IMG/VR virus record: IMGVR_UViG_3300005253_000054 | Coordinates: 36,284-100,283 of that record | Reading direction: 5' to 3' (one strand) | Source: a virus | DNA: 64,000 bases | Shown here: in pieces, positions 9,062 through 16,138 of the stretch | Numbering within the stretch: position 1 is the stretch's first letter | Layout: every line of letters begins with the position of its first letter | The notes under the pieces: model-generated | What the model was told of the DNA's origin: nothing | The model's input: the letters and a program-made list of their open reading frames with translations, nothing else | The model's database searches: none | Program-made: the position numbers and the translations under genes

Positions 9062-9432
9062 TTTGGCCATCAGGAATAGAATGTGATAGTAACGAAATTG
9101 AGTTGTGGTATGATGATCTTGACGAGGATGTTATGGGCAAAATCAATAGGTGTCTAAAAGAAAAGGGTTTTCAGTTTGTGGATGATGGCTTAATACACGA
9201 TGGGTATTCTGCCTATCGTTTGGAGAAGTTGTGATATGAAAGTTGGGAAAGAAGTTAGTGTGACTCCAGTATGTCAAGGGTGGTGTAGTGTGTTTGCTAC
9301 AAATTTAGTTCCATTAACGGTATCAATACTTGGTAAAACGAAATTAGAAGAAAAATCACAAGTGGAATTTGCTAAAGAAGTTTATGAATGTTATCGACAG
9401 AAACAAGCCAAGGAACGTGGAGAATTAGAAGA

Positions 9433-12400
9433 TTGAATTATCAAACATTCCTCAAAACGAAACGACTACGAACCGATCCTAAAGGATTCGATCCGATATG
9501 GTTACCAGATTGGTTATTCGGATTCCAAAACCATTTGTGTGATTGGTCGATTCGTTTGGGCAGGTCTGCTTTATACGAGGACTGTGGGCTTGGCAAAGGC
9601 AGTCCTCCCAATATGCCTGTTTTAACTCCCACTGGATTTGTCCCAATAGGCAGTTTGGAAATTGGTGATTCTGTTATAGCTTCTGATGGAAAATCCTATG
9701 ATGTAAAGGGGGTTTACTTCAAACCGAGGCAGGATGTTTTCAGATTATGGTTTAGTGATGGTGTTTCGTTAGTAGTGGATTCTGACCATTTGCATATATG
9801 CCGAACAAATAATGACAGACAAAGAGATAAGCCCTGGCGTGTTTTGAGTACCAAGGAATTGTTGGAATGTAATAATTTGAGATATGGTAGTGATGGGAAG
9901 TCTCGTAATTACGATATTCCCGTTGTTGGTCCAGTGGAGTTTTCAGTGGATTGCCCCAAAACATTGACACCATATATTATCGGAGCCTTGTTGGGAGACG
10001 GTTGTACTTCTCAACCAAGTATGATTCAATTCACATCTGCGGATTCTGAGATTGTCAACAGGATCAATAATGAATTGTTGGGTGGTGTTGAATTAGTTTA
10101 TAAAGATCGTTATGAATACCGGTTAAAAACTGGTAAGACTGGTTGTGTGAAACATCCTATTCGTGCTTTTTTGTATCGGATTGGGATGATGGGGAAATTG
10201 TCGTATCAAAAAAGTATTCCAAAAGAATACCTTATGTCGAAACGAATAGAGGATAGGTTGGATTTGCTTCGTGGTTTGATGGACACGGATGGGTACATAA
10301 TGAAGTGTGGTACTTCTCAGTTCTATTCTGTTAGTAGAAAGCTTGCGACAGACGTGGAGTTTTTGGTCAGAAGTCTTGGGGGTGTTCCCACTTTTTCTAG
10401 GAAGCAAACCAGTTTGAATGGAGAACGAAAGAGGGATTGTTATACTGTTACATTTTCATTAAAGACCTTCAATCCTTTCTTTCTGTCGAGAAAAGCAGAA
10501 AGATGGAATCCCGATCCTAGGGACAATGGTAGGTGGATTGATTCCATTGACTATGAGGGACAATCTGAGACAGTGTGTATTTCTGTTGATTCTCCTGATT
10601 CTAGTTATGTCACTAGGAGTTTCATTGTTACACACAATACTCCCCAGCAATTAGTATGGGCTGAGAATGTGGTTAGACACACAAACAAACCCGTTTTGAT
10701 TGTGGCACCTTTGGCTGTATCCGCTCAGTTTGTTACAGAGGCAGAGAAGTTTGGGGTAGGGATACATCGTAGCCGTGATGGTAGATTGAAAAAGGGAATC
10801 AATGTTACGAATTACGAGCGATTACATCATTTTGATCCGAAGAGATTAGCTGGAATATCCTGCGACGAGTGTTTCCCTCCGGGAACGGCAATAGATGTTG
10901 TGAACCCCCTTGACAATTCTTTAGAAAAGAAGTATATTGAAGATATTGCACGGGGTGACCAAATTCTCAATGCTTCTGGAGTAGATCATGTCAAACATAT
11001 ATGGAAGAGAAAAATCAACGGGGCGGTTCAAGTCGGCACCGAAGGATCTAAAATTACCTGTAGCGAAAATCATCCATTCTTTACCTTGCATGGTTGGAAA
11101 TTCGCACGAGATTTACGAGCCGGAGATTGTGTCATGGAGACAGCCTCGGCAATGTACTTGGTGCGGGGAGATTTTCAATCCGAAATATGTAGCGAACAAG
11201 ATGGCGAGATTTTGCGGAACATCTTGCTCAGCGAAATGGCGGATGAATACACCGGAACACAAAGCAAAAGTACACAATCCAACTGTTGCCAAAAAAAGAG
11301 GAAAATCGAAAGCATTATGGTTCAGAGGAGGATCAGCAACAGCCAAAAAAGAACTCAAGCGGATAGCCGAGTTGTGTCCGATGAAAGATCCGAAAGTGAG
11401 AGCGAAGGTGTCCAAACGATTGAAAGAGATAGGACACAAGCCGAGGATTCAGGGAGGGAATGGGAGACCTTTGACGGAGCCGCAACAGATGCTATTAGAT
11501 TTGTTGGGTGGGGAGTGGGTTGCAGAATATCCAATTACCCTTGGGAAAAAGATACCCGGATATCCAACGAATTACAAGGTAGATATAGGTTGCCAATTAC
11601 GAAAAACAGCAATCGAGTTGGATGGGCATTCTCATTATTCCAGAAAAGAATTGGATCAGAAGAAAGACGAAATGCTGGCTTCGTTAGGGTGGACAGTGTT
11701 GAGGTTTTGGAATTGGGACATCCTAGATTGGATAAATGGAGGGATGAAAAAGGAGACGTCTATTTCTATGATATTGAAGCAACACGACATCCATCTTTCA
11801 GTGTGAATGGTTTGTTAGTACACAATTCGTCTATCCTAAAAAACTTTGATGGAAAGATGCGAAGAAGAATTACAGATTTTGTATCATCTATCAATTATCG
11901 TCTCCTATGCACGGCCACCCCAGCACCAAATGACCACATGGAATTGGGAACATCCTCCGAAGCATTGGGTGTAATGAGCCGTGGTCAGATGCTAGGAATG
12001 TTTTTCGTTAATGGTGGGGAAACAACGCAACAATGGTTGCTAAAAGGTCACGCGAAGAAACGATTCTGGCAATGGATGGGAACGTGGGCCAGGGCTATTC
12101 GTATGCCATCTGATCTTGGTTTTGATGACGGGGATTTTATTTTACCAGAGTTGATAATGAAACAGCATCTTGTACCTAGTGAGGTTACGGATGGATTCTT
12201 TCCTACTATGGCTGTTACGTTGGATGAGCAGAGGGCAGAACGAAAACGGACGATGCAGGCTAGGTGCGAAAAAGTGGCTGAGATTGTTCCTAATGATAGG
12301 CCATTTGTTGCTTGGTGTCATCTGAATCCAGAATCAGATTTGCTGGAGAAGTTGATTCCTGATGCCGTTCAAGTTAGTGGTAGTATGAAAGATGAGGTGA

Positions 12401-12759
12401 AAGAGGAGCGATTGAAAGCGTTTGCTGATGGGCAGATAAGGGTACTGGTTACTAAACCAAAAATTGCTTCATTCGGTCTTAATTGGCAGCACTGTGCTGA
12501 TATGTCATTCTTCCCGTCTCATAGTCATGAGCAATTTTATCAGTCTTTACGACGATGTTATCGGTTCCAACAAGAGAATTCAGTAACTTGTAATATCGTT
12601 ACGAGTGAGGCTGAGAGTAGAGTTTTGGATAACATGATGCGGAAAGAGCGGCAGGCTGTGGAAATGTATGATGGGATCGTAAGAGAAATGGGTAGGGCTT
12701 TGGATGAATCGAATGGGCAAAAAGGAAACGAGGAAACGAGTATACCGTCATGGTTGTAA
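9433..12759 (+). CDS. SNF2-like SF2 helicase containing two inteins
   Basis: After removing the inteins: GLGK|T Walker A, DE|SS Walker B, TATP, FGLNWQ, QSLRRCYRFQQ. Confidence 0.9.
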   Translation: MNYQTFLKTKRLRTDPKGFDPIWLPDWLFGFQNHLCDWSIRLGRSALYEDCGLGKGSPPNMPVLTPTGFVPIGSLEIGDSVIASDGKSYDVKGVYFKPRQDVFRLWFSDGVSLVVDSDHLHICRTNNDRQRDKPWRVLSTKELLECNNLRYGSDGKSRNYDIPVVGPVEFSVDCPKTLTPYIIGALLGDGCTSQPSMIQFTSADSEIVNRINNELLGGVELVYKDRYEYRLKTGKTGCVKHPIRAFLYRIGMMGKLSYQKSIPKEYLMSKRIEDRLDLLRGLMDTDGYIMKCGTSQFYSVSRKLATDVEFLVRSLGGVPTFSRKQTSLNGERKRDCYTVTFSLKTFNPFFLSRKAERWNPDPRDNGRWIDSIDYEGQSETVCISVDSPDSSYVTRSFIVTHNTPQQLVWAENVVRHTNKPVLIVAPLAVSAQFVTEAEKFGVGIHRSRDGRLKKGINVTNYERLHHFDPKRLAGISCDECFPPGTAIDVVNPLDNSLEKKYIEDIARGDQILNASGVDHVKHIWKRKINGAVQVGTEGSKITCSENHPFFTLHGWKFARDLRAGDCVMETASAMYLVRGDFQSEICSEQDGEILRNILLSEMADEYTGTQSKSTQSNCCQKKRKIESIMVQRRISNSQKRTQADSRVVSDERSESESEGVQTIERDRTQAEDSGREWETFDGAATDAIRFVGWGVGCRISNYPWEKDTRISNELQGRYRLPITKNSNRVGWAFSLFQKRIGSEERRNAGFVRVDSVEVLELGHPRLDKWRDEKGDVYFYDIEATRHPSFSVNGLLVHNSSILKNFDGKMRRRITDFVSSINYRLLCTATPAPNDHMELGTSSEALGVMSRGQMLGMFFVNGGETTQQWLLKGHAKKRFWQWMGTWARAIRMPSDLGFDDGDFILPELIMKQHLVPSEVTDGFFPTMAVTLDEQRAERKRTMQARCEKVAEIVPNDRPFVAWCHLNPESDLLEKLIPDAVQVSGSMKDEVKEERLKAFADGQIRVLVTKPKIASFGLNWQHCADMSFFPSHSHEQFYQSLRRCYRFQQENSVTCNIVTSEAESRVLDNMMRKERQAVEMYDGIVREMGRALDESNGQKGNEETSIPSWL
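9598..10638 (+). mobile_element. Intein 1 (347 aa) with in-frame LAGLIDADG endonuclease; Gly at position 1, class-3-like
   Basis: GSPPNMPVLTPTGF ... VCISV ... IVTHN|T; YIIGALLGDG and LLRGLMDTDG motifs; splicing restores GLGKT. Confidence 0.9.
10910..10938 (+). promoter_or_regulatory. Sigma70-like promoter inside intein 2
   Basis: TTGACA-17 nt-TATATT; SD GGAG at 10978-10981 before ATG 10988. Confidence 0.75.
10988..11806 (+). CDS. Vsr/DUF559-like endonuclease with Zn finger, nested in the +1 frame of intein 2
   Basis: CTWCG..FCGTSC; YKVDIG..AIELDGHSH..DQKKDEMLASLGWTVLRFWN. Confidence 0.85.
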   Translation: MSNIYGREKSTGRFKSAPKDLKLPVAKIIHSLPCMVGNSHEIYEPEIVSWRQPRQCTWCGEIFNPKYVANKMARFCGTSCSAKWRMNTPEHKAKVHNPTVAKKRGKSKALWFRGGSATAKKELKRIAELCPMKDPKVRAKVSKRLKEIGHKPRIQGGNGRPLTEPQQMLLDLLGGEWVAEYPITLGKKIPGYPTNYKVDIGCQLRKTAIELDGHSHYSRKELDQKKDEMLASLGWTVLRFWNWDILDWINGGMKKETSISMILKQHDIHLSV

Positions 12760-13703
12760 AGAAACAACTAATTACTGATAACTATGCTCTCCATTGCGGT
12801 GATTGCGTGGAGGTGTTAGCAGATTATCCGGATGAATCAATTGGCTTTTCCGTATTCTCACCACCGTTTAGTGATTTGTATTCGTACACGGATGAGCAAG
12901 AGGATATGAGCAACGTCAGGGATTACAAGGAATTCTTTAAGCATTTCAGATTCTTAGTCAATGAATTGCTTCGTCTTATGCTTCCTGGTCGTGTGGTGGC
13001 TGTGCATTGCATGGATATACCTACTTACAAACGGGATGGTGAGGGTATAGGGATTCGGGATTTTCCGGGTGATATTGTCCGATGTTTTCAGAAAGTGGGG
13101 TTCATTTTTCATAGCCGTCATTGCATCTGGAAAGATCCCCTGATAGCAGCGACTAGAACGAAAGCAATCGGACTAGCCCACAAGTCAGTAGTAAAGGATA
13201 GCAGTATATGTCGTACTGGTATTCCAGATTACATCGTGTCGTTCCGAAAGCCTGGGGAGAATCTGAAACCGATTGAGAATCTGAATGGGTTTACTGAATA
13301 CATAGGTTCTCGATCAGTTCCTAAAGACTTTGATAAGTATATTGGCTGTGAGATTCCAAAAAAGAACAGACGATCCCAATGGATTTGGCAACAGTACGCT
13401 TCCCCTGTTTGGTTTGATATTGACCAAACAAAGGTATTGCCATTTAGGAATGCAAAGGGGAAGGATGATACTAAGCACATTTGTCCTTTACAACTTCAGA
13501 CGATAGAAAGGTGTATGGTATTGTGGTCGAGGGAAGGTGATAATGTTCTATCACCATTTATGGGAGTGGGTAGTGAGGTTTATGTAGCTGTAAAGAATGG
13601 GAGAAGGGGTATCGGTGTAGAACTCAAAAAGAGTTATTATAGGCAAGCCGTTTTGAATGTGAAACAAGCCGAGAAGAAAAGGTCAGCTGGTTTCGATTTG
13701 TAA
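12750..13703 (+). CDS. DNA N4-C/N6-A methyltransferase (beta-type motif order)
   Basis: FSPPF (motif IV) precedes VLSPFMGVGS (motif I). Confidence 0.9.
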   Translation: MVVKKQLITDNYALHCGDCVEVLADYPDESIGFSVFSPPFSDLYSYTDEQEDMSNVRDYKEFFKHFRFLVNELLRLMLPGRVVAVHCMDIPTYKRDGEGIGIRDFPGDIVRCFQKVGFIFHSRHCIWKDPLIAATRTKAIGLAHKSVVKDSSICRTGIPDYIVSFRKPGENLKPIENLNGFTEYIGSRSVPKDFDKYIGCEIPKKNRRSQWIWQQYASPVWFDIDQTKVLPFRNAKGKDDTKHICPLQLQTIERCMVLWSREGDNVLSPFMGVGSEVYVAVKNGRRGIGVELKKSYYRQAVLNVKQAEKKRSAGFDL

Positions 13704-14006
13704 ATGGGAGGTAGCGAAAATGTGCAAATCAAATGATGACGGTTTTGACGAGGATTTCGACGATGATCTTGACGATGAATGGTGGGACGAAGATGGGGAT
13801 GAAGACGAATGACAGTTACTTTTGACGAACTGATAATTGAATCCAGATCATTGGCACAGCAAGACAAATCCTGGGGCCAGACGTGGGATGTTGTCGGTCC
13901 CCAGGTGGATCAAGGCATGGTGCTCGGAAGGATTGTTGGAGCTAAGCACGCAAATAGAATAAAGCTTTATCTGTCGTGGGTAAGCGGTCAGAAAACCAAA
14001 TGACTT

Positions 14007-14037
14007 TTGCCGTGTTTTGGATTGATTGGCGTATAAT
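14007..14037 (+). promoter_or_regulatory. Putative promoter, repeated motif copy 2
   Basis: TATAAT at 14032-14037; near-identical to 1347-1369. Confidence 0.65.
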
Positions 14038-14296
14038 ATTGTAAGGAGAATGATACGAAATGAGCACCATAAAAATAGATGATGATGGTTATGCGAAAGT
14101 CACGACTGGTAATCTTACGGCTAGATTCGGTTGGGATGGTCATCCAAATGGTGCTAGGGGAATCGAACGTGCTTGTGAGCAGATAGCTAAGCTACAGAAT
14201 ATAATACTTGAACAACGCAAAATCCTCGACAAGTTGCCGAAGGATGCTGAAGGAAACGTGTACCCGCCGCCAAGCTCCTAACCGAAAGGATTGACG

Positions 14297-16138
14297 ATGC
14301 CCCCAGAACTCTATCGTAAATACCGACCTACCAAATTCTCAGAGGTATTAGGTCAACCTGAAGCAATCAAGACCCTAAACGATTGGGGCAAGCAAAAAGC
14401 GATACCCCACTTCCTGCTATTCACAGGCCCTAGTGGGTGTTTGCGTGGGGATACGAAGATATTTGATCCGGTGGATTCTAGTGATTTGTCTATTCGGGAG
14501 CGTTGGAGGATTGGTCATCCTTTCCATGTTTTGTCGAGGAACGAGGATAACAGGCTGGTAGTGGCGGAAGCGATGCCACCGGTCCGCCATTCTCCAGATT
14601 GGATGTATCGTGTAAAAACTTCTGAATCGCTTTTTTACGTAACGTCCGAACACCAGTTCCTCGTTGACACTGGTGAGTACCTTTCATTGAGGGAACTTTA
14701 CGCTCGGAGATTCGACGGAGTCCATCTTCTGACCACTTGGGACATTTCCCAAGCAATTCAACACCAAGATGCTCACCATTGTTTGCAAACAAGATTAGAT
14801 TATTCGGATCGTTATCGGTCTTATCCCCGTTTTTATGATGAACGACTTCCGATTCAGTCAGATATCGATTCAAAATACGCTCAAGCACCAAACGATGTTC
14901 TAGGACGTAACCGTTTCTCGCATTTGGATGTTTTGGCATCCGTATCAAAACATAACCATCCCCGTCAATTACACGACCACCTTTCCAGGCAGGATTATCG
15001 ACACCACGTTGGAAAGAATACTGTGGACGAATTTGGGTGTTTGAACGTTTCAACGATTCACGAACGTTTTGACGTTTTGTCTTCAGACGTTTTGCGATTT
15101 GTTTCTGAGTCCAACCGTCTTGATACATGCCCGAAACTAACTTGTCCCGTTCTGGAGTCCAAATACGACGCCTGTGTGGATAGAAGCCTTTTGGCATTGT
15201 CTTCTCCTTGTTTTGATAGGACCATATTCTCTAGTACCATTATACAAGATATCTCCCAAACAAGCAAGCAGCCCTACTATGATTTTCATGTTCCTATTTA
15301 CGAGAATTATTGGGCTGGTGGTTTGATTCATCATAATTGTGGCAAAACGACTTTAGCCCGAATTCTTCGGAAGAAACTCAAGTGTTCCGACCACGATTTT
15401 ATAGAGGTGAATGCCGCCGAGACAAACGGGATTGATATGGTGCGGTCTATCGCGAGGGTAATGGGCCTTGCACCGATGATGGGCAGGTGTAGGGTGTGGC
15501 TCATAGATGAGGCTGCTAGGCTCACTAAGGATGCTCAGAGTGCTTTCCTCAAGATGCTGGAGGATACGCCCGAACACGTCTATTTTATGCTGGCGACAAC
15601 TGATCCTCAGAAGTTACTACCCACGATTATGACAAGGGCATCTGAGATTAAGGTAAAGGCTTTATCTTCTAAGGATATGACGGATTTGGTTAGAGGCGTA
15701 CGTCATCAAGAGGAGCAAGCCAATTCTGAAGAGGATTTGGTTGGAATATCCGATGACGTTTGTGATAAAATTATTGACATAGCAGACGGATCGGCAAGGA
15801 AAGCATTGGTCCTATTGCATCAAGTGATTGGTGAAGGGGACGAGGAGAAGCAGTTAGCGGTCTTGCAACAGGCAGATAGCAAGCAACAGGCAATTGAGAT
15901 TTGCCGATTGCTAATGAAAGCGAATACATCGTGGAAGCAGATGGCTAAGCTGCTTAGAGCCGTTGACGACGAGCCGGAGGGTATCAGGCGGCTGATGTTG
16001 GCTTATATGACCAAGGTAGGGCTGAGTGGTAATAAGAGGGCCATCGTGTGTCTTGAGGCGTTTGAGGAGCCTTATTTCAATACTGGCAGGGCAGGATTGG
16101 TTTTGTCCTGTTGGAATGTAATCAATGGAGGTGGATGA
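14297..16138 (+). CDS. dnaX: Clamp loader (DNA pol III gamma/tau-like) with intein
   Basis: LYRKYRPTKFSEVLGQ; GPSG|CGKT after splicing; IDEA; AFLKMLEDTP. Confidence 0.9.
   Translation: MPPELYRKYRPTKFSEVLGQPEAIKTLNDWGKQKAIPHFLLFTGPSGCLRGDTKIFDPVDSSDLSIRERWRIGHPFHVLSRNEDNRLVVAEAMPPVRHSPDWMYRVKTSESLFYVTSEHQFLVDTGEYLSLRELYARRFDGVHLLTTWDISQAIQHQDAHHCLQTRLDYSDRYRSYPRFYDERLPIQSDIDSKYAQAPNDVLGRNRFSHLDVLASVSKHNHPRQLHDHLSRQDYRHHVGKNTVDEFGCLNVSTIHERFDVLSSDVLRFVSESNRLDTCPKLTCPVLESKYDACVDRSLLALSSPCFDRTIFSSTIIQDISQTSKQPYYDFHVPIYENYWAGGLIHHNCGKTTLARILRKKLKCSDHDFIEVNAAETNGIDMVRSIARVMGLAPMMGRCRVWLIDEAARLTKDAQSAFLKMLEDTPEHVYFMLATTDPQKLLPTIMTRASEIKVKALSSKDMTDLVRGVRHQEEQANSEEDLVGISDDVCDKIIDIADGSARKALVLLHQVIGEGDEEKQLAVLQQADSKQQAIEICRLLMKANTSWKQMAKLLRAVDDEPEGIRRLMLAYMTKVGLSGNKRAIVCLEAFEEPYFNTGRAGLVLSCWNVINGGG
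14490..15197 (-). CDS. HNH homing endonuclease with N-terminal HTH, antisense within intein 3
   Basis: GWTQKQIAKRL HTH; NPAWKGG; YVLEHRLV..EVVHHKNGDKTDNDPNNL; SD AAGGAG 6 nt before ATG. Confidence 0.9.
   Translation of the reverse strand: MPKGFYPHRRRIWTPERDKLVSGMYQDGWTQKQIAKRLKTKRQNVRESLKRSNTQIRPQYSFQRGVDNPAWKGGRVIDGDGYVLIRMPKHPNARNGYVLEHRLVLERILNRYLTESEVVHHKNGDKTDNDPNNLILFANNGEHLGVELLGKCPKWSEDGLRRISERKVPSMKGTHQCQRGTGVRTLRKKAIQKFLHDTSNLENGGPVASLPPLPACYPRSSTKHGKDDQSSNAPE
15239..15267 (-). promoter_or_regulatory. Antisense sigma70-like promoter inside intein 3
   Basis: Minus strand TTGCTT-17 nt-TATAAT, about 40 nt upstream of the HNH ATG. Confidence 0.75.

What the first reader, a model, noticed from the sequence alone, without database searches (positions are those of the whole stretch)
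10870..15337. Dual-coding inteins carrying separately expressed, out-of-frame endonuclease genes (two independent cases)
Seen: two inteins in different host genes keep all splicing blocks but have only motif-less filler where an endonuclease domain would normally sit. Each filler is the off-frame reading of a real nuclease gene (Vsr/DUF559-like in +1, HNH antisense). Each gene has a -35/17 nt/-10 promoter and an SD inside the intein boundaries. Known: intein homing endonucleases are normally in-frame domains, as in intein 1 of this window. Inference: these are composite mobile elements in which a free-standing nuclease transcription unit shelters inside a mini-intein. Protein splicing makes the insertion neutral as long as the intein frame stays open, and the nuclease supplies homing with its own expression timing. 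Different nuclease families and orientations suggest a recurring strategy that single-frame annotation would miss. I do not know of a description of this but cannot check the literature.
Basis: partly seen in the sequence, partly recalled or inferred. Interest (0 to 1): 0.95.

Follow-up and report, generated by a model that had tools for sequence, protein, structure and literature searches.

The report
Two inteins hiding out-of-frame nuclease genes
In this marine-sediment phage, two self-splicing protein inserts (inteins) each carry their DNA-cutting "homing" enzyme as a separate gene, one shifted by a base and one on the opposite strand; selection keeps both readings intact in well over a hundred related phages, but this layout was already described in 2025-2026 preprints.

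Summary

- **Intein 2** (10870-11826, SNF2-like helicase, Walker B DE|C site) contains a complete +1-frame Vsr/DUF559-like nuclease gene (10988-11806).
- **Intein 3** (14438-15337, clamp loader, P-loop G|C...HN|CGKT site) contains a complete antisense HNH gene (15197-14490).
- **Stop codons.** The host frame has 0 stops where synonymous resampling expects about 24 (Vsr) and about 8.6 (HNH).
- **Relatives.** The same frame relation holds in 121 of 128 unique Vsr-type loci and in 26 of 27 HNH-type loci. These lie in helicases, terminases, clamp loaders and TraG-like ATPases.
- **Selection.** Codon-position variability flips inside each intein, from host-frame wobble in the splicing domains to nuclease-frame wobble in the filler.
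- **Structure.** AlphaFold2 models the filler as disordered (pLDDT below 50) between confident HINT halves.
- **Expression signals.** Promoter-like, SD and ATG signals are present and conserved.

The novelty claim fails. Separate-frame and antisense intein endonucleases were reported by Gorbalenya 1998 (as cited in the preprints), Gosselin et al. 2025 and Phillips et al. 2026. This scan has also noted both families on other DNA.

What is new here is the nuclease and frame combinations, and how common they are.

The parts
9388..12759 (+). Host gene 1: SNF2-like/phage DNA helicase (1123 aa precursor) with two inteins
   Evidence: ORF. PHROG DNA helicase 5.5e-35 and Helicase_C. Relatives lacking intein 1 read GLGKTPQQL.
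9598..10638 (+). Intein 1 (context only): canonical in-frame LAGLIDADG intein in the Walker A GLGK|T site. Its first residue is Gly.
   Evidence: LAGLIDADG_3 and Hom_end hits within residues 279-357. Boundaries and from the intein-less allele in L082.
10870..11826 (+). Intein 2 (319 aa), inserted after the Walker B/DExx 'DE' (DE|C ... HN|SS)
   Evidence: Pfam Intein_splicing 7.9e-11. The same junctions occur in 38 close relatives.
10870..11244 (+). Intein 2 N-terminal splicing (HINT) part, residues 1-125
   Evidence: AF2 pLDDT mostly 85-96. Host wobble position is the most variable over residues 1-90.
11245..11670 (+). Intein 2 host-frame filler, residues 126-267: stop-free, no motif, predicted disordered
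   Evidence: pLDDT below 50 for residues 126-267. From about residue 106 to 285, host codon position 1 (the nuclease wobble) is the most variable.
11671..11826 (+). Intein 2 C-terminal splicing part (blocks F and G), residues 268-319
   Evidence: pLDDT 88-93. The codon phase returns to host wobble over residues 286-319.
10910..10938 (+). Sigma-70-like promoter TTGACA-17-TATATT inside the N-terminal splicing domain
   Evidence: 11 of 12 matches. The -35 lies in a 6-codon insertion (IDNSLx) that a subclade of about 18 close relatives carries. In about 14 of them the hexamers are kept down to synonymous sites.
10978..10990 (+). SD GGAG, 6 nt, then ATG start of the nested nuclease gene
   Evidence: GGAG/GGGA plus NAT-G is conserved in the same subclade: the host codon there is always NAT, never NAC.
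10988..11806 (+). Nested +1-frame gene: FCS-type zinc finger + helical linker + Vsr/DUF559-like nuclease (272 aa)
   Evidence: DUF559 2.8e-13. AF2 mean pLDDT 80, low only over about residues 1-45. Fold matches 3HRL, 3R3P (I-Bth0305I) and 1CW0 (Vsr). Profile hit to 3HRL 3e-12. Zn and catalytic residues are invariant in 119-121 of 121 nested loci.
14291..16138 (+). Host gene 2: clamp loader (DnaX/gp44-like AAA+), 615 aa precursor
   Evidence: PHROG clamp loader 4.6e-54, DNA_pol3_delta2 3e-18.
14438..15337 (+). Intein 3 (300 aa) in the Walker A P-loop (GPSG|C ... HHN|CGKTT)
14771..15220 (+). Intein 3 segment (residues 112-261) that is absent from mini-intein relatives. It is filler in the host frame.
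   Evidence: Alignment with 459-489 aa mini-intein clamp loaders. Host codon position 2 (the HNH wobble) is the most variable over residues 91-255.
14490..15197 (-). Nested antisense HNH endonuclease gene (235 aa; HTH-like N-terminus, HNH core about residues 60-160). The tail overlaps the N-terminal splicing domain.
   Evidence: HNH_3 and PHROG HNH families. Full-length relatives at 49-59% identity are nested the same way.
15198..15267 (-). HNH upstream signals: TTGCTT (15267-15262), 17 nt, TATAAT (15244-15239), AAGGAG (15209-15204), 6 nt, ATG
   Evidence: A strong SD and ATGCC (MPKG) occur in 10 of 10 clamp-loader relatives, with TTGnCn-17-TATAAT-like hexamers in most. The hexamers also persist in the closest mini-inteins.

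Best explanation
Both elements are contiguous inteins whose homing endonuclease is not an in-frame domain. It is a separate, overprinted gene.

The host gene is translated straight through the intein. The N- and C-terminal HINT halves fold around a stop-free, disordered loop of about 140-150 residues and splice themselves out, which restores the helicase Walker B site and the clamp-loader P-loop.

The same DNA, read in another register, encodes the nuclease:
- In the +1 frame of intein 2: a zinc-finger plus Vsr/DUF559-like (EDxHD-type) nuclease.
- On the antisense strand of intein 3: an HTH plus HNH nuclease.

Each nuclease has its own SD and ATG and a promoter-like site inside the intein, so it is probably made from its own transcript.

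The nuclease would cut intein-less alleles of the same ATPase motif in co-infecting phages, and recombinational repair would copy intein plus nuclease gene as one unit (homing).

Selection therefore acts on three things at once: splicing blocks in the host frame, nuclease residues in the nested frame, and absence of stops in the host frame across the overlap.

Shown here: the anatomy, stop depletion, frame-specific purifying selection, conservation of signals, and spread across host genes. Inferred: transcription from the internal promoters, splicing, cleavage and homing.
For: 1. Domain assignments.

2. Stop depletion in the window: 0 observed against about 24 and about 8.6 expected.

3. Vsr-type relatives. 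Of 128 unique loci, 121 have a long host ORF open across the whole nuclease gene, always with the nuclease in the host's +1 frame. N-terminal 'DE|CF..GT' was recognised in 114 and a 'VHN|[SC]' junction in 113. Five relatives outside an open host frame (L200, L188, L219, L128, L215) carry 9-27 stops in that frame. None has the nuclease in frame.

4. HNH-type relatives. In 26 of 27 unique loci the same antisense register has 0 stops and ends in HHN|[CST]GK[ST]. Among 79 loci found through the HNH core, 74 have 1-38 stops in that register and 5 are further nested cases.

5. Codon phase flips exactly at the borders of the filler in both families.

6. AF2: HINT halves score pLDDT of about 90 and the filler below 50. 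The nuclease ORF scores 80.

7. Nuclease zinc and catalytic residues are invariant in 119-121 of 121 loci.

8. Mobility. The Vsr-intein unit occurs in at least 13 host extein classes, including helicases, terminases and clamp loaders. The HNH-intein unit occurs in clamp loaders, terminases and TraG-like ATPases. Empty sites are reciprocal: L001's clamp loader has an uninterrupted GPSGCGKTT P-loop but carries the Vsr-intein at its DE site, while the window's clamp loader is the reverse.

9. Signals are conserved.
Against: - No RNA, protein or activity data exist. No RNA run holds the stretch.
- The HNH -35 is weak (3 of 6), and its hexamers overlap conserved intein residues (T-I-I-K). They also persist in mini-inteins without the HNH core, so their conservation is not independent proof of a promoter.
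- The first ~55 codons of the Vsr ORF overlap the N-terminal splicing domain. They evolve in host-frame phase and fold with low confidence, so the true start could be downstream of 10988.
- The promoter of the Vsr gene is confined to one subclade.
- The nuclease tree clusters by host gene (18 changes, 12 being the minimum), so host switches are occasional, and recent homing is not demonstrated for this phage.
Confidence: 0.86

Rival explanations
1. The nested ORFs are decaying relics of nuclease genes that once invaded mini-inteins. The inteins now persist only by vertical descent, and the nested frames are open by inertia.
For: The nuclease tree follows host gene class closely. Mini-intein relatives without the HNH core exist. 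A few frameshifted or interrupted copies exist: L191, L209 and L181.
Against: Catalytic and zinc residues are invariant in 119-121 of 121 loci at 30-65% identity. The wobble position of the nuclease frame is the most variable across the whole overlap. Full-length ORFs are kept in nearly all loci. Relics would show stops and no phase.
Confidence: 0.04
2. The Vsr-like domain is really an in-frame intein endonuclease domain. It is reached either through assembly frameshift errors or through programmed +1 and -1 ribosomal frameshifting, and the open host frame is incidental.
For: The nuclease lies on the same strand and exactly where an endonuclease domain would sit. The N-terminal ~55 codons of the ORF are not independently constrained.
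Against: The same +1 relation and a stop-free host frame occur in 121 independent assemblies, where about 24 stops are expected. Contigs of three runs agree with no indel. A conserved SD and ATG precede the ORF. This cannot apply to the antisense HNH case.
Confidence: 0.03
3. The genes are functionally 'fractured' as in Dassa et al. 2009. The host protein is made as two halves with a split intein and joined by trans-splicing, with the nuclease gene between them.
For: Vsr-like nucleases were first found between split-intein halves. One relative (L200) is a stop-ridden free-standing copy followed by a C-intein remnant.
Against: There is no stop in the host frame, and I saw no start codon or SD set up for a C-terminal half. 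The host frame is kept stop-free against strong odds, which would be pointless if translation were split.
Confidence: 0.03
4. The nested nucleases are expressed but serve mainly something other than homing of their own intein. Possibilities are exclusion of competing phages, or antisense or occlusive regulation of the host replication gene.
For: Free-standing phage HNH and GIY-YIG genes are known to act in marker exclusion (general knowledge). An antisense transcript across a clamp-loader gene could affect its expression.
Against: The nuclease and intein are inherited as one unit, in one fixed register, across many host genes and always at the same ATPase motif. That is the pattern expected for homing to that motif.
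Confidence: 0.07

Closest known systems
Non-canonical actinobacteriophage inteins with homing endonucleases in a separate frame or strand (Gosselin, Arsenault & Gogarten, bioRxiv 10.1101/2025.01.02.630785)
   Same: A contiguous intein with intact splicing domains; the endonuclease ORF lies between the splicing blocks but in another frame or on the antisense strand; the proposed origin is invasion of an intein by a free-standing nuclease gene; hosts include terminase and polymerase.
   Different: That paper reports antisense LAGLIDADG, antisense VSR-like and frame-3 EndoVII-like forms, and HNH only in frame. Here the VSR-like gene is on the same strand in the +1 frame and the HNH is antisense. 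The paper calls these forms rare (63 of about 800 inteins). Here the whole sampled Vsr-like clade is nested, in uncultivated phages from many environments.
Cyanobacterial DnaX intein with an out-of-frame LAGLIDADG endonuclease (Phillips, DeSimone & Gogarten, bioRxiv 10.64898/2026.09.14.751524; first noted by Gorbalenya 1998 as cited there)
   Same: The host protein family is the same (clamp loader gamma/tau). That intein also has a disordered in-frame filler, an overlapping ORF with an SD, purifying selection in the nuclease frame and co-existing mini-inteins.
   Different: There the nuclease is LAGLIDADG in a +2 ORF in cellular genomes. Here it is an HNH on the opposite strand in a phage, and the insertion is in the Walker A P-loop. 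I did not compare the insertion sites directly.
Fractured genes: split inteins with a free-standing Vsr-like or GIY-YIG endonuclease gene between the halves (Dassa et al. 2009, PMC2677866)
   Same: The same Vsr-like nuclease family associates with inteins in phage replication and repair genes. The nuclease brings its own control elements, and there are short coding overlaps with the downstream half.
   Different: There the host gene is broken into two ORFs and overlaps are 6-69 bp. Here the host frame is continuous and the nuclease gene is wholly overprinted (816 coding nt plus stop).
ShiLan element: out-of-frame HNH inside a phage methylase gene (Arsenault et al. 2025, PMC11855218)
   Same: An HNH gene hidden in another frame of a host ORF that stays stop-free.
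   Different: ShiLan has no intein splicing domains and its HNH is on the same strand. Here a complete intein surrounds the nuclease, which explains how the host protein is rescued.
I-Bth0305I / EDxHD (Vsr-like) homing endonucleases of group I introns (PDB 3R3P)
   Same: Fold and motif of the nuclease core match: E..D...H......D (fold search probability 0.96, TM 0.60 to the catalytic domain).
   Different: I-Bth0305I is intron-encoded rather than intein-nested. The profile E-value is only 0.038. The N-terminal FCS-like zinc finger and helical linker of the window protein are different.

Membership tests
Class 1 intein (HINT splicing domain) | Cys/Ser at intein position 1, and His-Asn followed by Cys/Ser/Thr at the C-terminal junction | tested here: met
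   Intein 2: C...VHN|S. Intein 3: C...HHN|C. The same holds in relatives.
Class 1 intein (HINT splicing domain) | Block B T-x-x-H, blocks F/G and a HINT fold | tested here: met
   ITCSENHPF and VTSEHQF. Pfam Intein_splicing reaches 42.4 bits (cut-off 35.8) for intein 2 but only 16.4 bits for intein 3. The AF2 beta-rich halves of intein 2 score pLDDT of about 90.
Class 1 intein (HINT splicing domain) | Insertion in a conserved host motif, with intein-less alleles existing | tested here: met
   Walker B DE|SS and Walker A G|CGKT. The L001 clamp loader has an uninterrupted GPSGCGKTT, and the window's clamp loader has an uninterrupted LIDEAARL.
Class 1 intein (HINT splicing domain) | Protein splicing activity | not testable with these tools
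   Needs expression of the precursor.
Vsr-like / DUF559 / EDxHD nuclease | Profile match above the curated threshold | tested here: met
   PF04480: 50.1 bits against 20.6. 3HRL: 3.2e-12 by profile.
Vsr-like / DUF559 / EDxHD nuclease | Conserved acidic and His catalytic residues, and the Vsr-type alpha/beta core | tested here: met
   D199, E210, D212, H216, D223 and K226 are invariant or nearly so in 121 loci. Foldseek hits 3HRL, 3R3P and 1CW0 with probability 0.77-0.99, but E-values are only 0.02-0.2.
HNH endonuclease (HNH_3) | Profile match and the His-Asn-His motif | tested here: met
   PF13392: 26.4 bits against 24.8. PHROG 20891: 1e-28. The sequence reads EHRLV...VHHKNGDKTDNDPNNL...EH.
Inteins with a separate-frame homing endonuclease (Gorbalenya 1998; Gosselin 2025; Phillips 2026) | Host/intein frame continuous across a complete nuclease ORF in another frame or strand | tested here: met
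Inteins with a separate-frame homing endonuclease (Gorbalenya 1998; Gosselin 2025; Phillips 2026) | Purifying selection in the nuclease frame and relaxed selection in the overlapping intein frame | tested here: met
   Codon-phase flips. Invariant nuclease residues. Filler disordered.
Fractured gene / naturally split intein (Dassa 2009) | Host gene broken into two ORFs, each with an intein half | tested here: not met
   No stop in the host frame in the window or in 121 + 26 relatives.
Homing endonuclease (functional sense) | Cleaves the intein-less allele and drives gene conversion | not testable with these tools
   Only indirect support: the unit is found in at least 13 host classes at one motif, with reciprocal empty sites.

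The most novel reading that the evidence does not exclude
Overprinting may not be a rare, short-lived intermediate between a free-standing nuclease gene and an in-frame intein domain. It may be a stable end state. On this reading, a whole deep clade of Vsr-like nucleases (down to about 30% identity, at least 13 host gene classes, hundreds of loci) lives obligately in the +1 frame of Walker-B inteins, and a parallel HNH clade lives antisense in P-loop inteins. Both would have promoter and SD signals written into the splicing domains themselves. That would make separate expression of the nuclease, uncoupled from the host protein, an adaptive feature of these elements.
Probability: 0.5. Interest if true: 0.6.

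Novelty: new member of a known kind. Interest (0 to 1): 0.45.

Why it matters
**Annotation.** Standard gene calling reports only the host ORF. The nucleases are missed, and the inteins look like odd 'endonuclease-less' inteins with long unexplained inserts.

**Intein biology.** The data show that separate-frame endonucleases are common, not rare, in environmental phages. Each of the two families sampled here keeps one register, and they sit at the Walker A and Walker B motifs of many ATPases. This fits the idea that nucleotide-binding motifs are gateways for switching between host genes.

**Study of overlapping genes.** These are clean natural examples in which one frame is selected only for the absence of stops.

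**Practical use.** The splicing halves with a tolerant loop of about 150 residues, and the Vsr-like and HNH nucleases with defined target motifs, are candidate parts for protein engineering and genome editing.

Tried and rejected
- **Phage GenBank records:** a megablast of 9388-16138 found no match.
- **The search for related loci with the bare intein 3 sequence:** found nothing, because its patterns fell in the unconserved filler. An alignment query worked.
- **The look-up of encoding contigs:** I used viral contigs instead.
- **RNA evidence:** no RNA holder is listed for the stretch, so nothing can be said on expression. The three DNA runs that were laid are contigs from one study and may include the source sample.
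- **Terminator scan:** no more hits than shuffled sequence gives, so it was not used.
- **Foldseek E-values for the nuclease model:** all above 0.001. The fold assignment rests on probability, TM-score to the small catalytic domains and the sequence-profile hits.
- **HNH tail as a constrained domain:** I considered whether HNH residues about 165-209 are separately constrained, because all three codon positions are unusually conserved over intein residues 46-90. More distant nested HNH genes do not share the tail, so it is probably a passive run-on. This is unresolved.
- **Rejected readings:** frameshift artefact, split-intein and relic readings (see rivals).

Full report
**What is there**

The window is the last 64 kb of a complete 100,283-bp virus record with direct terminal repeats. 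Public runs that hold it are marine-sediment metagenomes.

ORF 9388-12759 is an SNF2-like phage helicase precursor of 1123 aa. ORF 14291-16138 is a clamp-loader precursor of 615 aa.

The helicase carries two inteins:
- Intein 1 (9598-10638) is a canonical in-frame LAGLIDADG intein.
- Intein 2 (10870-11826) follows the Walker B 'DE': DE|CFPPGT...LLVHN|SS.

The clamp loader carries intein 3 (14438-15337) inside its P-loop: GPSG|CLRGDT...IHHN|CGKTT. Both inteins have Cys1, a T-x-x-H block B, blocks F/G and HN plus Ser/Cys. Neither has any endonuclease motif in the host frame.

**The nested genes**

In the +1 frame of intein 2 lies ORF 10988-11806 (272 aa).
- It matches Pfam DUF559 at 2.8e-13.
- With an alignment of 25 relatives, AlphaFold2 gives a mean pLDDT of 80: a zinc ribbon, a helical linker and an alpha/beta core. 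Only the first ~45 residues are poorly defined.
- The core matches 3HRL (a DUF559 protein), 3R3P (homing endonuclease I-Bth0305I) and 1CW0 (Vsr).
- A sequence profile hits 3HRL at 3e-12 and an FCS-type zinc finger.

On the opposite strand of intein 3 lies ORF 15197-14490 (235 aa). It matches HNH_3 above threshold and PHROG HNH endonuclease families down to 1e-28.

**Signals**

- Vsr gene: TTGACA-17-TATATT at 10910-10938, GGAG at 10978-10981 and ATG at 10988.
- HNH gene: TTGCTT-17-TATAAT at 15267-15239, AAGGAG at 15209-15204 and ATG at 15197.

In a subclade of about 18 close helicase inteins, the -35 sits in a 6-codon insertion (IDNSLx) that other family members lack.
- In about 14 of these the hexamers are kept even at synonymous sites.
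- The host codon before the nested ATG is always NAT, never NAC.

For the HNH gene, a strong SD and ATGCC start are present in 10 of 10 clamp-loader relatives, and TTGnCn-17-TATAAT-like hexamers in most.
- These hexamers overlap conserved intein residues.
- They also persist in the closest mini-inteins.
- They are therefore weaker evidence for a promoter.

**More than chance**

I recoded each nuclease protein with synonymous codons drawn from this phage's usage.
- Vsr: a mean of 23.9 stops in the host frame, and none of 20,000 trials was stop-free.
- HNH: a mean of 8.5 stops, with P about 1e-4.
- Observed: 0 in both.

For the Vsr gene the host frame is in fact the register with the most expected stops.

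**Relatives of the Vsr type**

Pattern scans with an alignment of four nested nucleases returned 80 viral and 80 metagenomic loci, out of at least 135 and 497 confirmed matches. After removing duplicates, 128 remain.
- In 121 of them a host ORF of 450-1888 aa is open across the whole nuclease gene, always with the nuclease in the host's +1 frame.
- The N-terminal junction 'DE|CF..GT' was recognised in 114, and a C-terminal junction '(L/V)VHN|[SC]' in 113.
- None has the nuclease in frame.
- The exceptions are instructive. Five stop-ridden copies carry 9-27 host-frame stops, and one of them is followed by a C-intein remnant, as in fractured genes. Two copies are frameshifted and one has a single stop.

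The hosts fall into at least 13 extein classes:
- the window's helicase type;
- SNF2, ResIII/DEAD and UvrD-like helicases;
- two terminase types;
- clamp loaders.

The nuclease tree mostly follows host class, with 18 label changes where 12 is the minimum and shuffles give 64. Lineages are therefore site-specific, with occasional switches.

**Relatives of the HNH type**

An alignment of clamp loaders with this intein found 49 viral loci. Of 27 unique loci with an antisense HNH match:
- 26 have 0 stops in one fixed antisense register (codon position 1 opposite position 1), against 1-19 stops in the other frames.
- Their host ORFs end the intein with HHN|[CST]GK[ST], which is the Walker A loop of clamp loaders, terminases, TraG-like and unassigned ATPases.

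As a control, I looked at 79 loci found through the HNH core alone. In 74 of them that register has 1-38 stops. The other 5 are further nested cases.

Clamp loaders of 459-489 aa carry the same intein without a 150-residue segment. That segment corresponds to 14771-15220 and holds the SD, the ATG and HNH residues 1-142.

**Which frame is selected**

In 38 helicase inteins:
- Over intein residues 1-90 and 286-319, the most variable codon position is the host wobble.
- Between about residues 106 and 285 it is host position 1, which is the wobble of the nuclease frame, and host position 3 becomes the least variable.

In 10 clamp-loader inteins, host position 2 is the most variable over residues 91-255. 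Host position 2 is normally the most constrained, and it is the wobble of the antisense HNH. Normal phase returns in the splicing domains.

Other evidence agrees:
- The four zinc-finger cysteines and the residues D199, E210, D212, H216, D223, K226, W235 and R239 of the Vsr-like protein are invariant or nearly so in 121 loci.
- AlphaFold2 models the host-frame intein 2 as two confident HINT halves (pLDDT about 90) joined by residues 126-267 at pLDDT below 50.
- Apparent host-frame conservation at 'ILLSEMADE' is the shadow of the nuclease zinc finger 'FCGTSCSAKWRM'.

**Mechanism**

An intein makes the insertion harmless as long as its frame stays open, and a separately expressed nuclease provides mobility.

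An internal promoter makes sense for the same-strand case. Ribosomes translating the host ORF would otherwise run over the nested start.

Reciprocal empty sites fit mobility: L001's clamp loader has an intact P-loop but a Vsr-intein at its DE site, and the window's clamp loader is the reverse.

Transcription, splicing, cleavage and homing are not shown.

**Comparison with what is known**

The architecture is published.
- Gosselin, Arsenault and Gogarten (2025 preprint) describe actinophage inteins with antisense LAGLIDADG, antisense VSR-like and frame-3 EndoVII-like endonucleases. They cite Gorbalenya 1998 for the first antisense case.
- Phillips et al. (2026 preprint) describe the cyanobacterial DnaX intein with a +2-frame LAGLIDADG gene, a disordered filler and frame-specific dN/dS.
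- Dassa et al. 2009 found Vsr-like genes between split-intein halves.
- Arsenault et al. 2025 found an out-of-frame HNH without an intein.

Two literature searches found no report of a same-strand +1 Vsr-like gene or an antisense HNH gene in a contiguous intein. The combinations and the abundance shown here therefore appear new, but the kind is not.

This scan's own notes list 28 similar findings on other genomes. They include a terminase P-loop intein with an antisense HNH and a helicase DECH-box intein with an overprinted Vsr/DUF559 gene.

**Verdict**

- Observation: confirmed.
- Interpretation: supported.
- Novelty: a new member of a known kind.
- Interest: moderate.

Noticed in passing
window 9598-10638: Intein 1 of the helicase begins with Gly. 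The intein-less allele in L082 reads CGLGK|TPQQL, so there is no N-terminal nucleophile. It has Cys in block F (VCISV) and Thr in block G (VTHN), which is class-3-like, but without an obvious block B Trp. It carries a normal in-frame LAGLIDADG domain.
   Followed up: partly
window 12750-13703, and proteins P0020, P0025, P0027 etc.: Many relatives of the helicase are 1030-1110 aa fusions with an N6/N4 DNA methylase domain (PF01555). In the window the methylase is a separate ORF whose start overlaps the helicase's end by 10 nt (12750 against 12759). This is a fusion/fission polymorphism.
   Followed up: no
L256 and L257 (mini-intein clamp loaders), upstream of YYDFHVP: The closest mini-inteins lack the HNH core but keep the TTGGCn-17/18-TATAAT-like hexamers and an antisense match to the HNH tail. 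This suggests they arose by deletion of the nuclease gene from a full element.
   Followed up: partly
L200/L093 2351-3195: A Vsr-like relative (53% identity) with 27 stops in the would-be host frame, followed directly by a C-terminal intein remnant in another frame. This looks like the 'fractured gene' layout of Dassa et al. 2009, within the same nuclease family.
   Followed up: partly
window 14573-14707 (intein 3 residues 46-90): All three codon positions are unusually conserved here among 10 relatives (0.16-0.34 against 0.3-0.6 nearby). This is where the HNH tail overlaps block B of the intein. It may be true double constraint, or simply a very conserved intein core.
   Followed up: partly
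(called homologues of the nested Vsr ORF): Of the listed homologues that gene callers did predict, most sit on contigs of about 1-3 kb, where the host ORF is probably truncated. The window's own nested ORF is not in the collection, while its host helicase (P0016) is.
   Followed up: no
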